From sequence record PZ445431.1: a stretch of 64,000 nt of DNA; one strand, given 5' to 3'. Source of the stretch: a phage. Below are positions 1,175 through 29,191 of the stretch, in pieces. Both the position numbers and the translations under genes were made by a program. The notes below the pieces were generated by a model, which had not been told where the DNA came from, searched no databases, and saw nothing but the letters and a program-made list of their open reading frames with translations. Every line of letters begins with the position of its first letter. Position 1 is the first letter of the stretch.

Positions 1175-3049
1175 TTATTTAGCGCGAATGTCTTGATGTT
1201 TCACTCGACCCATAACCTCATGTTGTTTACCTGGGTTAAACGGACGAGCACCTGGATTTCCAAGATATCCACAAACTCGACGAGTTACCTCAAGAGTCTC
1301 AGGATCATGGTTGCCACAAATAGGGCATTTGAAACCATCCTCAGAAGCTATAGTTTCACCCAAGAACCCACATTCCCCACAAGAGTCTACTGGAGTATTA
1401 ATACCGAAGTAATGAACTTTACTTGCAGCATAGTTAATAACCCATTCCAGTGCATCAGGGAATCGTTTCATATCCGGTAATTCCACATAGGAAATGCACC
1501 CACCAGAAGCAATAGGAGTAAAGTTAGACTCATAATCAAACTTCACATTTGGAGCAACCTTACGTTCTACATCAAGGTGATGGGAATTAGTGTAATATCC
1601 TTTAGCCAGAATATCTTCATGCTCTGGGAAATACTCACGGTCTAGGCGACAGAAGCGATCACATAGAGATTCAGATGGTGTAGCATACAGACTATACCCT
1701 AATTGAGTCTCTTCCTTCTTCTGATCAGCACGATCACGCATGTATTGTAGCACACGTTGAACGAACTTGATACAAGACTCAGACATTGTATCTACATCTT
1801 TACCAAACATGAGTTGCAACATTTCGTGGCAGCCAATATATCCTAGGGATACAGAAGCACGCTTGTAGAAATGATCAAACACATATTCATCTGGCCCCAG
1901 ACGTAATCCAAAGGCTCCTGACGTATAGAGGATGGGCGCAGCTTTAGCTTGAATGTATTTTAAGCGATCAACCCTCCACTCCAATGCTTTTAACGCGGTA
2001 TCCACACGCAGCTCAAGCAGATCGAAGAATAGATCAATATTTCCTTCCGCTTCGATAGCGATTCGAGGAAGGTTTACGGAAACAACGCCTAAGTTGTTAC
2101 GACCAGAAGTTTCACCATCTTCCGCAGCAGCCAGGAATGAACGACAGCCCATAGAGACTTTGTAGTCCCCCGTAACTTCTACAACCTTATCATAACTGAT
2201 GTAGTCAGGATACATACGTTCAGCAGTACATTTCATAGCTAACTTCTTGATATCATAGTTAACATCACCAGGTTTCATGTTTACGCCCTCACGCAAAACA
2301 AATACCAGTTTAGGGAAGATAGCTGTACGTTTATTGATACCCAAACCATCCATACGTACTTCTAGTATTGCTTTCTGTACAAGACGTGCTTCCCAAGAAG
2401 TTCCTAGACCAAAACCAAAGGTAATAAACGGACTTTGACCATTAGAGTTGAACATCGTATTGATTTCATACTCCAGGCCCTGACAGGCATCGTAAACTTC
2501 TTTCTCAGTCATTTCCGTAGCCATTACAGATGCTTTAGCTTCATCCTTAGTCCAACGCTTTGCAAACGCATGATTCTTATCATAAGACTTACGAACATAA
2601 GGAGCCAATACTTCATCTAATCGGTCTACAGAAGTACCCCCATATTGATGTGAACTAACCTGAGTGATAATCTGAGCTGTGATAGCAGCCGCAGTAGTAA
2701 TAGAGTTTGGTGTACTGATTTCAGCATTACCAACCTTCATACCATTCTTCAACATATCTTCCAAAGCAACCAGGCAACAGTTAGTCATACCTAACGCAGC
2801 GTAATCAGCATCATGGAAGTGAATATCACCAATCATGTGAGCATTTCGAATCTGGATTGGCATTTCTTCCAGAATCAGATATTTACTCAATTCCCCTGCA
2901 AGCATATCCCTTTGTGTAGGGAAACGTTCTGAGGGCTTATTGGCATTATTAAACAGCAGCTCTTCATCTGCTGAACCTTCGATAATTTCTTTGCAGTTTC
3001 GAATCAAGGACTGCATTCCTTTATACTTTAGTTCTTCATTGCGATTCAT
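1175..3049 (-). CDS. nrdD: anaerobic ribonucleoside-triphosphate reductase (class III RNR, glycyl-radical enzyme)
   Basis: 624 aa; C-terminal glycyl radical motif RVCGYLG preceded by Cys-rich zinc ribbon (CGECG...CPICG); length and layout typical of NrdD. Confidence 0.9.
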   Translation of the reverse strand: MNRNEELKYKGMQSLIRNCKEIIEGSADEELLFNNANKPSERFPTQRDMLAGELSKYLILEEMPIQIRNAHMIGDIHFHDADYAALGMTNCCLVALEDMLKNGMKVGNAEISTPNSITTAAAITAQIITQVSSHQYGGTSVDRLDEVLAPYVRKSYDKNHAFAKRWTKDEAKASVMATEMTEKEVYDACQGLEYEINTMFNSNGQSPFITFGFGLGTSWEARLVQKAILEVRMDGLGINKRTAIFPKLVFVLREGVNMKPGDVNYDIKKLAMKCTAERMYPDYISYDKVVEVTGDYKVSMGCRSFLAAAEDGETSGRNNLGVVSVNLPRIAIEAEGNIDLFFDLLELRVDTALKALEWRVDRLKYIQAKAAPILYTSGAFGLRLGPDEYVFDHFYKRASVSLGYIGCHEMLQLMFGKDVDTMSESCIKFVQRVLQYMRDRADQKKEETQLGYSLYATPSESLCDRFCRLDREYFPEHEDILAKGYYTNSHHLDVERKVAPNVKFDYESNFTPIASGGCISYVELPDMKRFPDALEWVINYAASKVHYFGINTPVDSCGECGFLGETIASEDGFKCPICGNHDPETLEVTRRVCGYLGNPGARPFNPGKQHEVMGRVKHQDIRAK

Positions 3050-3158
3050 TATACCCTCCTTCTCTAACTAAGACTACTATTATAACTCATTCGAAGGCGG
3101 ATGTCAACAATATTTTACTATAAAGTTCTGTAACATGATCTGAGTCAAAAAATTTTAT

Positions 3159-16236: not shown

Positions 16237-16407
16237 ATGAAATCAGTTGTAATTATTGGTGTTAATACTCGTGGTATCCGTACTACGAAAACAGTTAAAA
16301 CTACTAACGTTGCTGAAATTACTACAAACCCTAAGAAGTTTGATTTCGCTAAAGTCTCGGCAGTTATGACAGAACAATCTTTTAACCAAGCACTGGGAAT
16401 TAAATAA
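16237..16407 (+). CDS. hypothetical small protein (56 aa)
   Basis: Not in ORF track (<60 aa); sits exactly behind the conserved promoter/leader ...AATTAATGAGAGGAAGCGAAATATG and is coupled (TAATG) to the next gene. Confidence 0.5.
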   Translation: MKSVVIIGVNTRGIRTTKTVKTTNVAEITTNPKKFDFAKVSAVMTEQSFNQALGIK

Positions 16408-16850
16408 TGGAAGAGAATATTCTAGATGTTTTGCGTAGGGCTTTGCAGGAATCTAAGGTTGATGGTTCTGATAAAGAAGTAGCTAAAAGCTACCAGACCA
16501 TAATCGGAGATCTTCAGCGTGTTGATAAAGACTTCATTACTTCTGAACAGTTTGTATCTTATATAAAAGCTCAACTGAAAAGCATTAATCAGACGAAAGC
16601 TAAACTTCACGGTCAAGACCTTGATAATTATAGCTTGCAGTCTGCTCAGTATGAGTATATACTGAACAAATGGCTACAACAGTATCTGCCGCCTCAGTTA
16701 TCTGATTCTGAGATTCGCAAATACTTTGCAGAATTAGTTAAGTTGAACCCTGGGATTACAAAAGGTATGCTGATGAAAGCGATTAAGGAAGAGTTTCCTG
16801 GTCGTTACGACGGTGGCATTGCTGCTCAGGTTGCTGGCGAATTTAATTAA
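16407..16850 (+). CDS. GatB/YqeY-domain protein
   Basis: C-terminal GMLMKAIKEEFPGRYDGGIAAQVA resembles YqeY; 147 aa. Confidence 0.6.
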   Translation: MEENILDVLRRALQESKVDGSDKEVAKSYQTIIGDLQRVDKDFITSEQFVSYIKAQLKSINQTKAKLHGQDLDNYSLQSAQYEYILNKWLQQYLPPQLSDSEIRKYFAELVKLNPGITKGMLMKAIKEEFPGRYDGGIAAQVAGEFN

Positions 16851-16858
16851 AAATTGAT

Positions 16859-16887
16859 TTGCTAAACGCCTCAAAATTCTGTATAAT
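16859..16887 (+). promoter_or_regulatory. T5-type early promoter driving an ORF-free segment
   Basis: TTGCTA 16859-16864, TATAAT 16882-16887. Confidence 0.7.
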
Positions 16888-17770
16888 AGATTCATAAATT
16901 AGAGAACAGCGAGCCGATTACGCTGAGTGAGTTTAGTGATTCCTACTAGGATAGCTATTCCACTGAATAGAGTCGGTGAGTTTAGAATGATCACCTGTTA
17001 GAGTTCCGAGTCCAGTCCGGTATATCCGGCCAAGTGACTAGAGTAACGAATATAGGTTCGAGACTTCTTGTAAAACTCGGGAGCTGTCCCGAAATCTCGT
17101 AAACTCTTCTCTAGTTTATGTTAGTGGGGTGTCGAACTGACTTATGTGATAACACTGCCGTCCTAGTATAAACGGTAATATCAAACCGTAACTGGTGGAA
17201 GATGCAGGTTCGAATCCTGCGGTCGGAAAGAATCAGATAACTCGGGCTTATACCGGATAAGCATTCGCTGCTGGAGTACATACTATGACGGTTCAGGAGG
17301 TACGCCACCTGATCAGTATTAGGTTAGAATCGAAACAGCTAAACCACGAGGAAACCTGACGGCCTCAACCAAACTCGGAACTCGGGATCACTGCCTAGTG
17401 TGTGCCCCGTTTAACCTGAGACTAGGCATCCAGCTTCGCATCGAAAATCGGAGGTGCGATTCTAACAGACCGCGTGAATATGAGAGTGGGAAACGCTGAC
17501 ATGAGAGATGTCACTAATGGTGCCCAATAGTACAGGTAATTCGCGATAATTCCTGTTGAGCGGCAGCAGTAGGCTGGGAGTCATGACCTAAGCCTAACCG
17601 AGTTCTTCACATACGGAGAACATAACCACAAAGTCACCCTGACTTAAACTGGAAGATATTGTCTGACGGAAGGGCTGCAGAGCTTAATCTGAGGGGGCTG
17701 ACCCTACCTACCATCGGGTATCTTTAAGAGCTTTTTCGAGAGTTCTTAAAAATACCTAACAAAAGGAATC
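16888..17770 (+). ncRNA. candidate structured non-coding RNA region (no ORF >=60 aa on the sense strand)
   Basis: About 0.88 kb directly downstream of consensus promoter 16859-16887; contains tRNA-like T-arm GCAGGTTCGAATCCTGC (17204-17220) without a pairing acceptor stem and several short hairpins. Confidence 0.35.
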
Positions 17771-17773
17771 AAT

Positions 17774-18283
17774 ATGAATCTAGGAACAACTTGTATCTTT
17801 GATCATCAAGAAATGTGTTGCCCTCGTATTCTGCATATAGCACATTTCTCTGAACGATTGACACTTGATCAAGCTCGCGAGAAAATGAGTGAGATTACAG
17901 GATATAATTTTCGAGAAGGTGAATACTTTAGCGTAGCTTTGGATTACATCGACAATACTCGTCTTTATCACCTAGTTCAGCTTGGTGAAGAAACTGATGA
18001 AGTAAAAATGGCGAAAGATACATTACGTCGTTATCGCCCGCAGATTCTAGAGAGTACACTTCGCGGAGAGCCTAGTGATTACTTCTATATGCGCTGTTAT
18101 GACGCAGATGCACAAGAATACATGGCACATCAACGTTTCTACCACGATATTAAAGAGTTCGTTAATATCAAGTATGACAAGCTATTGATTGACTCTAAAG
18201 CACAACGTGCAGCTAAAAATGCTGAGAAATCTGCTAAAGAAGCTGTTGAAAGTCAAACTAAATTGAATAAAGTCATTAAATGA
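17774..18283 (+). CDS. hypothetical protein (169 aa)
   Basis: ORF with AAAAGGAA RBS. Confidence 0.55.
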   Translation: MNLGTTCIFDHQEMCCPRILHIAHFSERLTLDQAREKMSEITGYNFREGEYFSVALDYIDNTRLYHLVQLGEETDEVKMAKDTLRRYRPQILESTLRGEPSDYFYMRCYDADAQEYMAHQRFYHDIKEFVNIKYDKLLIDSKAQRAAKNAEKSAKEAVESQTKLNKVIK

Positions 18284-18291
18284 TTAACTTT

Positions 18292-18363
18292 CGGGGTGTA
18301 GTCTAAGGGATAGGCAGGAGTCTTCTAAATTCCTTTATGCAGGTTCGAATCCTGTCACCTCGG
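18292..18363 (+). tRNA. tRNA-Arg (anticodon UCU, read by eye)
   Basis: Acceptor CGGGGTG/CACCTCG (one G-U), anticodon arm GGAGT-CTTCTAA-ATTCC, T-arm GCAGG-TTCGAAT-CCTGT, encoded CCA. Confidence 0.55.
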
Positions 18364-18392
18364 CCAATTTTATTAACTGCTAGGAAAATAAA

Positions 18393-19572: not shown

Positions 19573-19612
19573 AAGCCCGCGTTTCCTCTGAGAGCGCGGG
19601 CTTTTCTGTATT
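19573..19612 (+). terminator. rho-independent terminator
   Basis: AAGCCCGCG ... CGCGGGCTT stem followed by TTCTGTATTT. Confidence 0.7.
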
Positions 19613-27615: not shown

Positions 27616-27688
27616 GGGCGAATAGTGTCAGCGGGAGCACACCAGACTTGCAAGTCTGGTAGGGAGGGTTCGAGTCTCTCTTTGTCCA
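27616..27688 (+). tRNA. tRNA-like gene with non-canonical anticodon loop (6 or 8 nt around TTGCAA)
   Basis: Acceptor GGGCGAA/TTTGTCC (two G-U), D-stem GTGT/ACAC, stem CCAGAC/GTCTGG, T-arm GAGGG-TTCGAGT-CTCTC, encoded CCA. Confidence 0.45.
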
Positions 27689-27706
27689 CCAAATTAAAAA
27701 GAATGC

Positions 27707-28253: not shown

Positions 28254-28769
28254 ATGCTAACACAACAAGAATTAAAATCCGTGTTGTTATATAAACCAGA
28301 TACTGGAGAGTTTTTCTGGAAATATAGATCTGATTTAGATAGTCAATGGAATAGTAAATATGCTGGAACTAGGGCAGGATTTATTAATGAACTAGGCTAT
28401 TGGAAGATAACTCTAGGAAATACTAGCTGGTTAGCACATCGTCTAGCATTCTTATACATGACTGGGGAAATACCAGATCTAATTGACCACAAGGATCAAG
28501 ATAAGTCCAATACTAAATGGGATAACTTACGAATAGCCACTGTATCACAGAATCAGGCTAATGCTAAATTAAGGGTAGATAATACCTCTGGGTACAAAAA
28601 TGTAACTTGGCATAAGCAAAGAAATAAGTGGAAAGTAGAAGTACGTAAAGATGGCAAACTCCATTATGGTGGACTTTTTACAGAACTAGATAAAGCTGTA
28701 AATAAAGCTAATAATCTTAGACGTGAGTTATTCGGGGAATTTGCAGTATATGAAGAGTTTATGGGGTAG
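28254..28769 (+). CDS. HNH homing endonuclease with AP2-type DNA-binding domain
   Basis: Same architecture as 6957..7472 (ELK..LYKPDTG.F.W, IDHKDQDKSNTKWDNLR, AP2-like SGYKNVTWHK); stop lies inside the next tRNA acceptor stem. Confidence 0.8.
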   Translation: MLTQQELKSVLLYKPDTGEFFWKYRSDLDSQWNSKYAGTRAGFINELGYWKITLGNTSWLAHRLAFLYMTGEIPDLIDHKDQDKSNTKWDNLRIATVSQNQANAKLRVDNTSGYKNVTWHKQRNKWKVEVRKDGKLHYGGLFTELDKAVNKANNLRRELFGEFAVYEEFMG

Positions 28770-28856
28770 GTCAATCCAACGGCTGGCGCTGGACTCCGAC
28801 TTGAAATCGGTTGATCGTAGTGATACGGTGTAAGGGTTCGATCCCCTTACCTACCT
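28765..28856 (+). tRNA. tRNA-Ser (anticodon UGA), type II
   Basis: Perfect acceptor GGTAGGT/ACCTACC, anticodon loop CTTGAAA, long variable arm, T-arm AAGGG-TTCGATC-CCCTT, encoded CCA. Confidence 0.7.
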
Positions 28857-29060: not shown

Positions 29061-29191
29061 TGGAATATGCCGGAATTGGTAGACGGGACTGCCGAATAGG
29101 TTTACTAGGAACATCCACTCCTAGAAATATACCTTAAAAGCGGTTGAGTTAAATGGTATAACTCATGAAGGTTCAAGTCCTTCTATTCCTT
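29061..29191 (+). tRNA. tRNA-like element of abnormal length (about 131 nt, or 85 nt from alternative 5' end); possible insertion-containing or degenerate tRNA
   Basis: Leu-like D-arm TGCCGGAATTGGTAGACGGG near 5' end, perfect T-arm GAAGG-TTCAAGT-CCTTC at 3' end, acceptor candidates pair 6/7, no encoded CCA. Confidence 0.3.

What the first reader, a model, noticed from the sequence alone, without database searches (positions are those of the whole stretch)
16859..17770. 0.9 kb ORF-free segment driven by a consensus early promoter: candidate large ncRNA
A canonical early promoter at 16859-16887 is followed by about 880 bp without any sense-strand ORF of 60 aa or more, in a genome where genes are otherwise packed with overlaps. 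The segment is GC-balanced, contains a tRNA-like T-arm (17204-17220) lacking a matching acceptor stem, and several local hairpins. T5-family tRNA regions are known to encode additional stable RNAs of unknown function.
Basis: partly seen in the sequence, partly recalled or inferred. Interest (0 to 1): 0.6.

Follow-up and report, generated by a model that had tools for sequence, protein, structure and literature searches.

The report
T5 "RNAX" large structured phage RNA
The ORF-free 0.9 kb is a real, promoter-driven, highly structured non-coding RNA: the counterpart of the "RNAX" stable RNA annotated in phage T5, conserved in over 500 T5-like phage genomes, still without a known function.

Summary
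A T5-type early promoter (16859-16887) is followed by 923 nt with no sense ORF above 33 aa, at 46% GC against 39.5% for the window.

The window is an Epseptimavirus, 100% identical here to phages oselot and TrudiRoth. The homologous stretch of phage T5 (AY543070) is annotated "rnaX, stable RNA with unknown functions". It is driven by promoter P16-17 and abuts tRNA-Arg.

Homologues occur in 528 GenBank phage records across four lineages: Markadamsvirinae, Sugarlandvirus, Mccorquodalevirinae and, in part, Novosibvirus. None carries a conserved ORF.

Structure is strongly supported. Compensatory changes occur in 20 of 32, 18 of 39 and 7 of 19 tested pairs (0 of 500 shuffles each). Many G-U/A-U exchanges show that the sense RNA strand is what folds.

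The RNA (about 16894-17759) has:
- a 5' clamp helix
- optional plug-in domains
- an embedded tRNA-like arm that lacks a real anticodon arm
- an invariant palindromic hairpin loop, AGUCAUGA
- a three-way junction
- a near-invariant 3' hairpin

Rfam has no family for it. It is not GOLLD, ROOL, RNase P RNA, tmRNA or a group I intron.

Function is unknown. The closest analogues are the ornate phage RNAs found beside tRNA islands.

So this is a new member of a known but uncharacterised kind.

The parts
16407..16850 (+). Upstream gene, YqeY-like ('tRNA amidotransferase' family). It sits directly upstream of the RNA in Markadamsvirinae and Proteus phage PM135.
   Evidence: Pfam YqeY at 25.6 bits, below the cut-off of 27. 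PHROG 1460, E = 1e-46. Synteny.
16859..16887 (+). T5-type early sigma-70 promoter (TTGCTA, 17-nt spacer, TATAAT). It is the homologue of T5 promoter 'P 16-17'.
16894..17759 (+). The RNAX-family non-coding RNA, 866 nt. The 5' end is inferred from promoter geometry (7 nt after the -10 hexamer). The T5 annotation would place it about 7 nt further in. The 3' end is inferred from where homology to relatives ends, directly before tRNA-Arg.
   Evidence: MFE -270.5 kcal/mol, z = -2.56.
16894..16906 (+). P1 clamp helix, 5' strand, starting at +1. It pairs with 17107-17119.
   Evidence: In T5 it is a plain hairpin. L025/L026 carry compensatory GATG/CATC; DU_PP_V, My1 and PM135 also compensate.
16907..17106 (+). 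Domain A, an optional domain inside the P1 loop. It contains the hairpin CAGCG/CGCTG (16907-11 with 16921-25), the pairing GAGTT 16977-81 with AACTC 17102-06, and variable hairpins. It is absent from T5-type RNAs and replaced by an HNH homing-endonuclease ORF in some relatives.
17107..17119 (+). P1 clamp helix, 3' strand.
17121..17136 (+). Near-invariant core junction UUAGUGGGGUGUCGAA. UAGUGG (17122-27) can pair with CCACAA (17626-31) as a long-range helix. An alternative partner is CCAC at 17344-47.
17137..17245 (+). Helix PB (17137-50 with 17232-45), which carries the tRNA-like arm at its tip.
   Evidence: 12 pairs, 99.4% paired, 7 with compensatory changes.
17157..17228 (+). tRNA-like domain: acceptor-type stem 17158-63 with 17221-26, D stem 17166-69 with 17178-81, T arm 17204-08 with 17216-20. 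The anticodon arm is replaced by a short or variable hairpin. There is no encoded CCA.
   Evidence: Rfam tRNA 29.3 bits. Not called by ARAGORN in the window. The 'anticodon' called in orthologues is inconsistent. The whole arm is replaced by a plain hairpin in STG2, L005 and PM135.
17246..17262 (+). Conserved hairpin GCUUA-UACCGGA-UAAGC.
   Evidence: 5 pairs, 3 compensatory.
17263..17482 (+). Central region C. It exists in two alternative versions. The window, Sugarlandvirus and Pectobacterium phages share one, including ...CAGCUAAACCACGAGGAAACCUGACGGCCUCAACCAAACUCGG. Tequintavirus has another. Structure was not resolved here.
17483..17631 (+). Domain D1: GUGG...CCAC closing pairs, hairpin 17497-17513, hairpin 17533-17557, the loop hairpin listed next, and hairpin 17602-17621.
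   Evidence: 33 predicted pairs, 7 compensatory, within Markadamsvirinae alone.
17570..17596 (+). Hairpin presenting the invariant 8-nt loop AGUCAUGA (17579-86; UCAUGA is self-complementary). The stem is UAGGCU-GG with CC-UA-AGCCUA.
   Evidence: The loop is unpaired in the local MFE fold of 18 of 20 distinct sequence contexts, on stems of quite different sequence, including Proteus phage PM135. GTCATGAC occurs once in the window.
17632..17644 (+). Hairpin AGUCA-CCC-UGACU, followed by the conserved single-stranded UAAACUGGAA (17645-54).
17652..17725 (+). Domain D2, a three-way junction closed by GAAGAUAU (17652-59) with GUAUCUUU (17718-25).
   Evidence: A covariance model seeded only on window-type sequences aligned the other lineages. 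Over the whole modelled 3' domain: 39 pairs, 97.2% paired, 18 compensatory.
17726..17754 (+). 3' terminal hairpin AAGAGCUUU-UUCG-AGAGUUCUU plus an A-rich tail. It is almost invariant: 97% identical in Pectobacterium phage DU_PP_V. No U-tract follows.
17774..18283 (+). 169-aa ORF inserted between the RNA and tRNA-Arg. It is absent in T5, S114 and many relatives, and matches no Pfam or PHROG family. It is not part of the RNA.
18292..18366 (+). tRNA-Arg(UCU), co-transcribed. In most relatives it starts about 6 nt after the 3' hairpin, so RNase P cleavage would create the RNA's 3' end there.
19573..19603 (+). First intrinsic terminator downstream, the likely end of the primary transcript.
   Evidence: Annotated as a bidirectional terminator at the homologous T5 and S114 sites.

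Best explanation
Window 16894-17759 encodes the orthologue of phage T5 'RNAX', a large (0.64-1.3 kb across the family), multi-domain, stably folded non-coding RNA.

Shown here:
- It starts at a T5-type early promoter.
- It has no coding capacity in any relative.
- It keeps a common secondary-structure core through many compensatory substitutions.
- It tolerates whole-domain gain, loss or replacement at helix tips.

Inferred:
- Host RNA polymerase transcribes it early, as the first part of a transcript that continues through tRNA-Arg(UCU) to the terminator at 19573-19603.
- The 5' end is protected by clamp helix P1, which begins at +1.
- The 3' end is made by RNase P cutting at tRNA-Arg where the tRNA abuts the RNA, or by another endonuclease where an ORF intervenes, as in this window.
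- The 3' end is then protected by the invariant terminal hairpin.

Most likely mode of action (about 0.3): it works in trans as a folded RNA particle rather than by base-pairing to targets. It would present invariant loops and junctions (GGGGUGUCGAA, AGUCAUGA, UAAACUGGAA) and, in most members, a tRNA mimic to host or phage factors of the tRNA and translation machinery. It may self-associate through the palindromic loop. This is analogous to the ornate phage RNAs GOLLD and ROOL, which also sit beside tRNA islands.

The tRNA-like arm is an accessory handle or decoy, not the core function, because some members lack it.
For: Identity. The window is 100% identical over 16800-17800 to phages oselot and TrudiRoth. 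T5 record AY543070 annotates the homologous segment as misc_RNA rnaX, 'stable RNA with unknown functions', between promoter P 16-17 and tRNA-Arg. S114 annotates a 'P16-17-like promoter' there.

Spread. 528 phage records match. They include Sugarlandvirus and Pectobacterium phages DU_PP_V and My1 of another subfamily. Pieces occur in Proteus phage PM135.

Non-coding. There is no conserved sense ORF. ORFs annotated in other records match the window only in fragments, in different frames.

Structure:
- Module B: 94.4% paired, 20 of 32 pairs compensatory, 0/500 shuffles reach this, slid controls give 3-6.
- 3' domain: 97.2% paired, 18 of 39 compensatory, 0/500, slid controls 3-5.
- P1 plus the long-range helix: 96.2% paired, 7 of 19 compensatory, 0/500.
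- Supporting folds.
- Frequent G-U/A-U/G-C exchanges show the sense RNA strand is what folds.
- MFE z = -2.56.

Selection. The RNA core is 79-85% identical between the window and T5, while the adjacent YqeY-like protein is only 47% identical.

Loop. The AGUCAUGA loop is displayed on unrelated stems in every lineage.

Analogy. GOLLD and ROOL are phage RNAs 'often near tRNA islands'. tRNAs sometimes lie in the GOLLD linker, and both RNAs self-assemble (PMC12286853).
Against: - No expression data for this phage were available. 'Stable RNA' rests on a GenBank note for T5, and I found no paper describing it.
- The ends of the RNA are inferred, not mapped. The T5 annotation starts about 7 nt downstream of the start site I infer.
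- The compensatory changes come from roughly five or six lineages, so independent events are fewer than the cell counts suggest.
- Alignment A4 was fitted to the model structure.
- Region C (17263-17482) and the tertiary or long-range pairings are unresolved: GUGG and CCAC each occur twice.
- Nothing tested here bears on function. No Rfam family matches.
- My1 breaks the loop palindrome (AGUCAUGC), which weakens the kissing-loop idea.
- GGA motifs are not enriched, so it is not a CsrA-type sponge.
- A Vibrio member of the family, Thalassa, shows no such gap at the syntenic place.
Confidence: 0.85

Rival explanations
1. It is only a long structured leader or spacer of the tRNA-Arg transcription unit. 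Its job would be in cis: stabilising the precursor, guiding RNase P or other processing, or tuning expression of the downstream ORFs. It would then be discarded.
For: It is co-transcribed with tRNA-Arg. No terminator lies between them, and the tRNA abuts it in most relatives. The 3' hairpin next to the junction is the most conserved part. ORFs are repeatedly inserted exactly at that junction.
Against: A leader of 640-1300 nt with about ten conserved helices, invariant loops far from the junction and plug-in domains is far more than processing needs. The other 20 tRNAs of the window have no such leader. The 3' hairpin has no U-tract or alternative terminator/antiterminator pairing. The core stays conserved whether a tRNA or an ORF follows. 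T5 annotators call it a stable RNA.
Confidence: 0.12
2. It is a graveyard of decayed tRNA genes and mobile-element scars in a recombination-prone tRNA region, with no function of its own.
For: It contains a degenerate tRNA. Annotators and ARAGORN give that tRNA different identities in different phages. Its T arm is 18/18 identical to that of the neighbouring tRNA-Arg. Homing endonuclease genes insert here.
Against: Only 72 of 866 nt are tRNA-like, and no other tRNA remnant scores. Non-tRNA helices covary strongly. Core motifs are invariant across subfamilies whose neighbouring proteins are only 47-58% identical. The promoter is conserved in every homologue.
Confidence: 0.02
3. It acts as DNA, as a replication, packaging, nicking or protein-binding region, and the inverted repeats are DNA sites.
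For: AGTCATGACT-like and AGTCA-N3-TGACT palindromes and a long AT-rich inverted repeat are present. T5 genomes carry site-specific nicks, one annotated about 1 kb downstream in T5.
Against: Many helices keep pairing through G-U intermediates, which would be C-A mismatches on the other strand. That points to selection on the sense RNA. The element begins exactly at a conserved strong promoter. Stems flanking the palindromic loop change sequence while the hairpin is kept.
Confidence: 0.02
4. It encodes one or more small proteins missed by ORF thresholds.
For: Several GenBank records annotate 50-108-aa 'hypothetical proteins' inside the homologous stretch.
Against: The longest sense ORF in the window is 33 aa, with 65 sense stop codons in total. 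The annotated ORFs of relatives match the window only as fragments in three different frames. ORF positions are not conserved.
Confidence: 0.01

Closest known systems
Phage T5 'RNAX' (misc_RNA rnaX, GenBank AY543070 / NC_005859)
   Same: Same locus: YqeY-like gene, then promoter P16-17, then the RNA, then tRNA-Arg(UCU), then the SPFH gene and terminator. Direct sequence homology: 79-90% in modules B and D and in the 3' hairpin. Same strand, and the same tRNA-like arm.
   Different: The T5 version is 720 nt and lacks domain A; there P1 is a simple hairpin. It has a different central region C and a T5-specific duplication of the AGUCACCUUGAC-UAAACUGGAA unit. In the window a 169-aa ORF separates the RNA from tRNA-Arg.
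GOLLD and ROOL (giant ornate phage/prophage RNAs)
   Same: They are phage-encoded, 0.6-0.8+ kb, elaborately structured and non-coding. They are 'often near tRNA islands', tRNAs sometimes lie inside GOLLD's linker, and their function is unknown (PMC12286853). Here the RNA is 0.64-1.3 kb, heads the tRNA region, and carries a tRNA-like arm at a helix tip.
   Different: There is no sequence or structure match to either Rfam model, even at E <= 10 on the 1-kb stretch. The hosts differ: virulent enterobacterial siphoviruses here, mostly Firmicutes, Actinobacteria and metagenomes there (own knowledge). Self-assembly is untested here.
Bacterial Y RNA YrlA (tRNA-mimicking ncRNA bound by Ro60/Rsr)
   Same: It is an ncRNA with a T arm, D arm and acceptor-type stem but no decoding anticodon arm. 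Such domains are recognised by tRNA enzymes and can be cut by RNase P while the halves stay together (PMC4201824). Helix PB could likewise hold RNAX together.
   Different: YrlA is about 100-150 nt, has a Ro60-binding stem and lies next to rsr. No rsr gene is nearby, and no Rfam YrlA or Y RNA match was found.
T4 stable RNAs C and D (rnaC, rnaD) in the T4 tRNA cluster
   Same: They are phage stable RNAs of unknown function, co-transcribed with and processed out of a tRNA operon (own knowledge; not tested here).
   Different: They are only about 120-140 nt. No homology was examined.
tRNA (Rfam RF00005)
   Same: 17157-17228 reaches the gathering score (29.3 against 29). It has T, D and acceptor-type stems that covary.
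   Different: There is no 7-nt anticodon loop on a 5-bp stem. The 'anticodon' is inconsistent among orthologues: Ser-ACU, SeC-UCA, Leu-UAG or none. There is no encoded CCA. The element is embedded in a longer helix, and it is dispensable in some members.

Membership tests
T5 RNAX family | Sequence homology to the annotated T5 rnaX segment, on the same strand | tested here: met
   blastn finds 79-90% identity over modules B and D and the 3' hairpin, co-linear. The feature is annotated in AY543070.
T5 RNAX family | Same genomic place: after the YqeY-like gene, driven by the P16-17-type early promoter, upstream of tRNA-Arg(UCU) and the SPFH gene | tested here: met
   One difference: a 169-aa ORF lies between the RNA and tRNA-Arg.
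T5 RNAX family | Accumulates as a stable RNA in infected cells | not testable with these tools
   Only the GenBank note for T5. No paper or RNA-seq data were found.
tRNA | Full cloverleaf with a 5-bp anticodon stem, a 7-nt loop and an anticodon conserved among orthologues | tested here: not met
   ARAGORN makes no call in the window. Anticodon calls in orthologues are inconsistent. The arm is replaced by short or tetraloop hairpins.
tRNA | Score at or above the Rfam gathering threshold | tested here: inconclusive
   29.3 bits against 29.
GOLLD / ROOL | Match to the family covariance model (conserved core helices and pseudoknots) | tested here: not met
   No match at E <= 1 on 18 kb or E <= 10 on 1 kb.
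GOLLD / ROOL | Large ornate phage RNA next to tRNA genes | tested here: met
   Comparison text from PMC12286853.
GOLLD / ROOL | Homo-oligomeric RNA-only assembly | not testable with these tools
   The only hint is a conserved self-complementary UCAUGA in a hairpin loop.
YrlA / bacterial Y RNA | Ro60-binding stem and adjacency to an rsr (Ro60) gene | tested here: not met
   No such gene appears among the neighbours. No Rfam match.
CsrB-type protein sponge | Enrichment of GGA motifs in loops | tested here: not met
   16 GGA observed against 15.6 +/- 3.4 expected.

The most novel reading that the evidence does not exclude
RNAX would be a third, independent class of giant ornate phage RNA tied to tRNA islands, after GOLLD and ROOL, and this one sits in the classic model phage T5 and more than 500 sequenced relatives. 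It would fold into a defined particle and self-associate through the invariant palindromic AGUCAUGA loop. It would use its outward-facing tRNA mimic to engage tRNA-directed host factors, for example as a decoy for tRNA-cleaving defence nucleases or a platform for tRNA enzymes. That would give the first genetically tractable E. coli system for learning what such RNAs do.
Probability: 0.2. Interest if true: 0.85.

Novelty: new member of a known kind. Interest (0 to 1): 0.6.

Why it matters
Large structured non-coding RNAs of phages are an open problem. GOLLD and ROOL now have cryo-EM structures but no known function, and they occur in hosts that are hard to manipulate.

This RNA is comparable in size and complexity and also sits at a tRNA island. 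It is encoded by T5 and hundreds of T5-like coliphages and Salmonella phages, including members of the BASEL collection such as TrudiRoth. In these phages, deletions, defence-system panels, pull-downs and structure probing are routine.

It has been annotated only as 'RNAX, unknown function' in one T5 record. It is unannotated, or mis-annotated as small hypothetical proteins or odd tRNAs, in most other genomes, and it has no Rfam family.

A family model would clean up the annotation of more than 500 genomes. It would also make an old open question testable: why do phage tRNA clusters carry extra stable RNAs?

Tried and rejected
- Rfam scans of 18 kb and of the 1-kb stretch found only the borderline tRNA hit.
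- Literature searches for RNAX, T5 stable RNAs and T5 transcriptomes found no description. One apparent hit did not contain the term.
- A pattern scan of IMG/VR and a protein-anchored scan returned only the same isolate genomes already in GenBank.
- The syntenic place in Vibrio phage Thalassa has no comparable gap. Aeromonas phage 2L372D was irrelevant, being a different family.
- A whole-3'-domain MAFFT alignment (A2) mis-registered the Klebsiella and T5-type variable helices, so I did not count pairs on it. I used a covariance model seeded on window-type sequences instead.
- A second long-range pairing, GGU 17128-30 with ACC 17597-99, does not hold in Sugarlandvirus or Pectobacterium phages by inspection. 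I dropped it.
- Whether UAGUGG pairs with CCAC at 17626 or at 17344, and which GUGG pairs with which CCAC, could not be resolved. Both motif pairs change together in DU_PP_V.
- CsrA-sponge idea: GGA is not enriched.
- Decayed HNH gene idea: no similarity.
- Parent tRNA of the tRNA-like arm: no convincing donor. Only the T arm equals that of tRNA-Arg.
- An 8-nt match of domain A to the 16S 3' end (GAUCACCU) is not conserved in relatives (by inspection). I treat it as chance.
Full report
**What the window is.** Positions 16800-17800 are 100% identical to Salmonella phage oselot and Escherichia phage TrudiRoth. Both belong to genus Epseptimavirus (Markadamsvirinae, Demerecviridae), so this is a T5-like phage. 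The finding lies at the head of the tRNA gene region, which holds 21 tRNA genes between 18292 and 30220.

**Checking the observation.**
- The upstream gene ends at 16850 and the next sense ORF starts at 17774.
- Between them the longest sense ORF is 33 aa and the longest antisense ORF 65 aa.
- The three sense frames carry 17, 24 and 24 stop codons.
- GC rises to 0.46-0.51 against 0.37-0.40 in the flanks and 0.395 for the window.
- This is the longest sense-strand gap in the early region and the most GC-rich such gap in the window.
- TTGCTA-17-TATAAT lies at 16859-16887.
- Hexamer-level promoter matches are no more frequent than in shuffles. However, this site belongs to a 46-nt extended consensus present at least 10 times in the window.
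- The promoter is conserved in front of every homologue. At the homologous place it is annotated as promoter 'P 16-17' in T5 and as 'P16-17-like' in S114.
- The T-arm at 17204-17220 is real.

**What it is.** The T5 record AY543070 annotates the homologous stretch as misc_RNA rnaX: 'RNAX, stable RNA with unknown functions', 719 nt, running from promoter P 16-17 to the first base of tRNA-Arg. The window element is its orthologue.

- blastn finds homologues in 528 phage records, 114 of them covering at least 80% of the query.
- These include Klebsiella Sugarlandvirus phages, with versions of 1243-1325 nt.
- They also include Pectobacterium phages DU_PP_V and My1, of subfamily Mccorquodalevirinae. 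Each has an ORF-free stretch of about 1 kb before tRNA-Arg, with a 'pseudo-tRNA' inside.
- Proteus phage PM135 (Novosibvirus) has recognisable pieces directly after its YqeY-like gene.
- Vibrio phage Thalassa has the YqeY homologue but no such gap.
- Most records leave the stretch unannotated. Others place small 'hypothetical proteins' or tRNA-OTHER/Sec/Pro/Leu features on it.

**Not coding.**
- Among 27 distinct sequences, each spanning the start site to tRNA-Arg, no sense ORF is conserved.
- The ORFs annotated by others match the window only as fragments in three different frames.
- The 160-aa ORF that begins at the transcription start in some relatives (L008, PRF-SP13, vB_SenS-3) is an HNH homing endonuclease.
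- That ORF replaces the 5' domain and shares no similarity with it.

**Anatomy** (from an alignment of 42 distinct homologues).

*5' clamp and domain A.*
- The inferred start is A16894, 7 nt after the -10 hexamer.
- Nucleotides 16894-16906 pair with 17107-17119 to form helix P1.
- In T5-type RNAs P1 is a simple hairpin. In the window it encloses the 200-nt domain A.
- Some relatives add a second self-contained domain of about 170-185 nt after P1. Its closing stem covaries: GGUGG/CCACC against GAUGG/CCAUC.

*Core junction and module B.*
- Next comes a near-invariant junction, UUAGUGGGGUGUCGAA.
- Helix PB (17137-50 with 17232-45) follows.
- At the tip of PB sits the tRNA-like arm, 17157-17228. 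It has acceptor-type, D and T stems but only a short, variable hairpin where the anticodon arm should be.
- ARAGORN assigns this arm Ser-ACU in T5, SeC-UCA in ende and 26175I, Leu-UAG in My1 and DU_PP_V, and nothing in the window, L007 or the Klebsiella phages.
- In STG2, L005 and PM135 the whole arm is replaced by a plain hairpin, while PB and the rest of the RNA are kept.
- The tRNA mimic is therefore accessory.

*Centre and 3' half.*
- Region C (17263-17482) exists in two alternative versions.
- Domain D1 (17483-17631) holds several hairpins.
- One D1 hairpin presents the invariant loop AGUCAUGA (17579-86). The loop sits on stems whose sequence differs between lineages, PM135 included.
- The AGUCA-CCC-UGACU hairpin and the single-stranded UAAACUGGAA follow.
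- Then come a three-way junction (17652-17725) and a terminal hairpin (17726-47). The terminal hairpin is 97% identical even in DU_PP_V.
- In T5, S114 and most relatives tRNA-Arg begins about 6 nt later.
- In the window, and in several others, a 169-aa ORF with no family match is inserted there.

**Is the structure real?**

| Region tested | Pairs | Cells paired | Pairs with change on both sides | Shuffle control | Slid control |
|---|---|---|---|---|---|
| Module B (29 sequences) | 32 | 94.4% | 20 | mean 9.7, 0/500 reach it | 3-6 |
| 3' domain | 39 | 97.2% | 18 | 0/500 | 3-5 |
| P1 + long-range helix 17122-27/17626-31 | 19 | 96.2% | 7 | 0/500 | 0-3 |

- The 3' domain was tested with a covariance model built only from window-type sequences. 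That model aligned T5-type, Klebsiella and Pectobacterium versions at E values of 1e-9 to 1e-17 and 3e-5.
- The long-range helix has three compensatory pairs, all from the Pectobacterium lineage.
- RNAalifold on domain A and on D1 gives further compensated helices.
- Many pairs move among G-U, A-U and G-C, which fits selection on the sense RNA and not on DNA.
- The minimum free energy is -270.5 kcal/mol, z = -2.56.

Caveats:
- The sequences fall into about five or six lineages, so independent events are fewer than the cell counts suggest.
- Alignment A4 was fitted to the tested structure.
- Region C and the choice among the duplicated GUGG/CCAC partners remain unresolved.

**Strength of selection.** Modules B and D are 79-85% identical between the window and T5. 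The adjacent YqeY-like protein is only 47% identical. The endolysin of My1 is 58% identical, yet the RNA's 3' hairpin is nearly invariant.

**How it probably works.**

Shown: promoter-linked, non-coding, conserved multi-domain fold.

Inferred:
- Early transcription by host polymerase through tRNA-Arg to the terminator at 19573-19603.
- 5' protection by P1.
- 3' end formation by RNase P at the tRNA, or by another nuclease where an ORF intervenes.
- 3' protection by the terminal hairpin.

An invariant core with plug-in domains at helix tips is what one sees in RNAs that act through a defined three-dimensional fold. It is not what one sees in repeat-motif sponges, and GGA is not enriched.

My best guess, at about 0.3, is a trans-acting RNA particle that displays invariant loops and a tRNA mimic to factors of the tRNA and translation machinery. 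It may self-associate through the self-complementary UCAUGA loop.

This parallels GOLLD and ROOL. Both are phage RNAs 'often near tRNA islands'. tRNAs sometimes lie in the GOLLD linker, and both form RNA-only cages of unknown function (PMC12286853).

The tRNA-like module resembles that of bacterial Y RNA YrlA. YrlA can be cut by RNase P while its halves stay together (PMC4201824). Helix PB would allow the same here.

T5 tRNAs are already known to counter tRNA-cleaving defences (statement in PMC10644984), so a decoy role for the mimic is plausible but untested.

**Comparison and novelty.**
- By homology and synteny it is a member of the T5 RNAX family.
- It is not a tRNA, GOLLD, ROOL, YrlA, tmRNA, RNase P RNA or intron by the tests available.
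- The kind is known only as one line of annotation. I found no paper on it in the library, and Rfam has no family for it.
- The window's version adds domain A and an ORF insertion relative to T5.
- I therefore rate it a new member of a known but uncharacterised kind. Interest is moderate to high because it makes an old puzzle testable in a model phage.

Noticed in passing
window 17774-18283: A 169-aa ORF with no Pfam or PHROG match sits exactly between the RNA's 3' hairpin and tRNA-Arg. It is present in some close relatives (ende, STG2, 26175I, L030) and absent in others (S114, T5). The pattern is presence/absence, like a mobile or accessory gene. Sugarlandvirus and My1 carry other ORFs at the same junction.
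   Followed up: partly
L008 3988-4467; L068 716-1195; L069 715-1197: In some Epseptimavirus genomes an HNH homing endonuclease gene starts at the RNA's transcription start. It replaces P1 and domain A, so the rest of the RNA would lack its 5' clamp there.
   Followed up: partly
window 27616-27691: ARAGORN reports a tRNA with a four-base anticodon 'tgca' (tRNA-???). Rfam's tRNA model scores it at 40.2 bits. It may be a frameshift-suppressor-like or aberrant tRNA.
   Followed up: no
window 28765-28855 and 29123-29191: Two more tRNA-like matches were not called by ARAGORN: a long-arm type (tRNA-Sec model, 38.3 bits, below its gathering score of 47) and a weak tRNA hit (23.9 bits). They may be further degenerate or atypical tRNAs.
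   Followed up: no
window 12161, 14008, 16177, 16859, 19753, 21594, 21958, 24359, 43293 (+) and 1088 (-): At least ten copies of a 46-nt T5-type early promoter consensus occur (TTGCT...TGTATAATAnATTyATAAATT). The first 10-13 transcribed bases are shared, so the 5' strand of the RNA's P1 helix is partly dictated by the promoter family.
   Followed up: partly
window 16407-16850: The gene directly upstream is YqeY-like (a GatB C-terminal type domain, annotated 'tRNA amidotransferase'). It keeps this position next to the RNA in Markadamsvirinae and Proteus phage PM135. A functional link between the protein and the tRNA-like RNA is conceivable.
   Followed up: no
L064 (Proteus phage PM135) 4217-4551: After tRNA-Arg, PM135 has a second T5-type promoter followed by about 300 nt with no annotated gene, ending at tRNA-Tyr. 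This is another candidate non-coding RNA. The record has no tRNA annotation at all, although ARAGORN finds 14 tRNAs in 10.5 kb.
   Followed up: no
L002 (T5) about 2990-3100: T5 itself carries a duplication of the AGUCACCUUGAC-UAAACUGGAA unit with about 80 nt between the copies. This makes its RNAX 720 nt against 637-645 nt in other Tequintavirus genomes.
   Followed up: no
window 17202-17219 versus 18337-18354: The T arm of the tRNA-like domain is 18/18 identical to the T arm of the downstream tRNA-Arg(UCU), although the rest of the two elements is unrelated. This could reflect gene conversion or common origin.
   Followed up: partly
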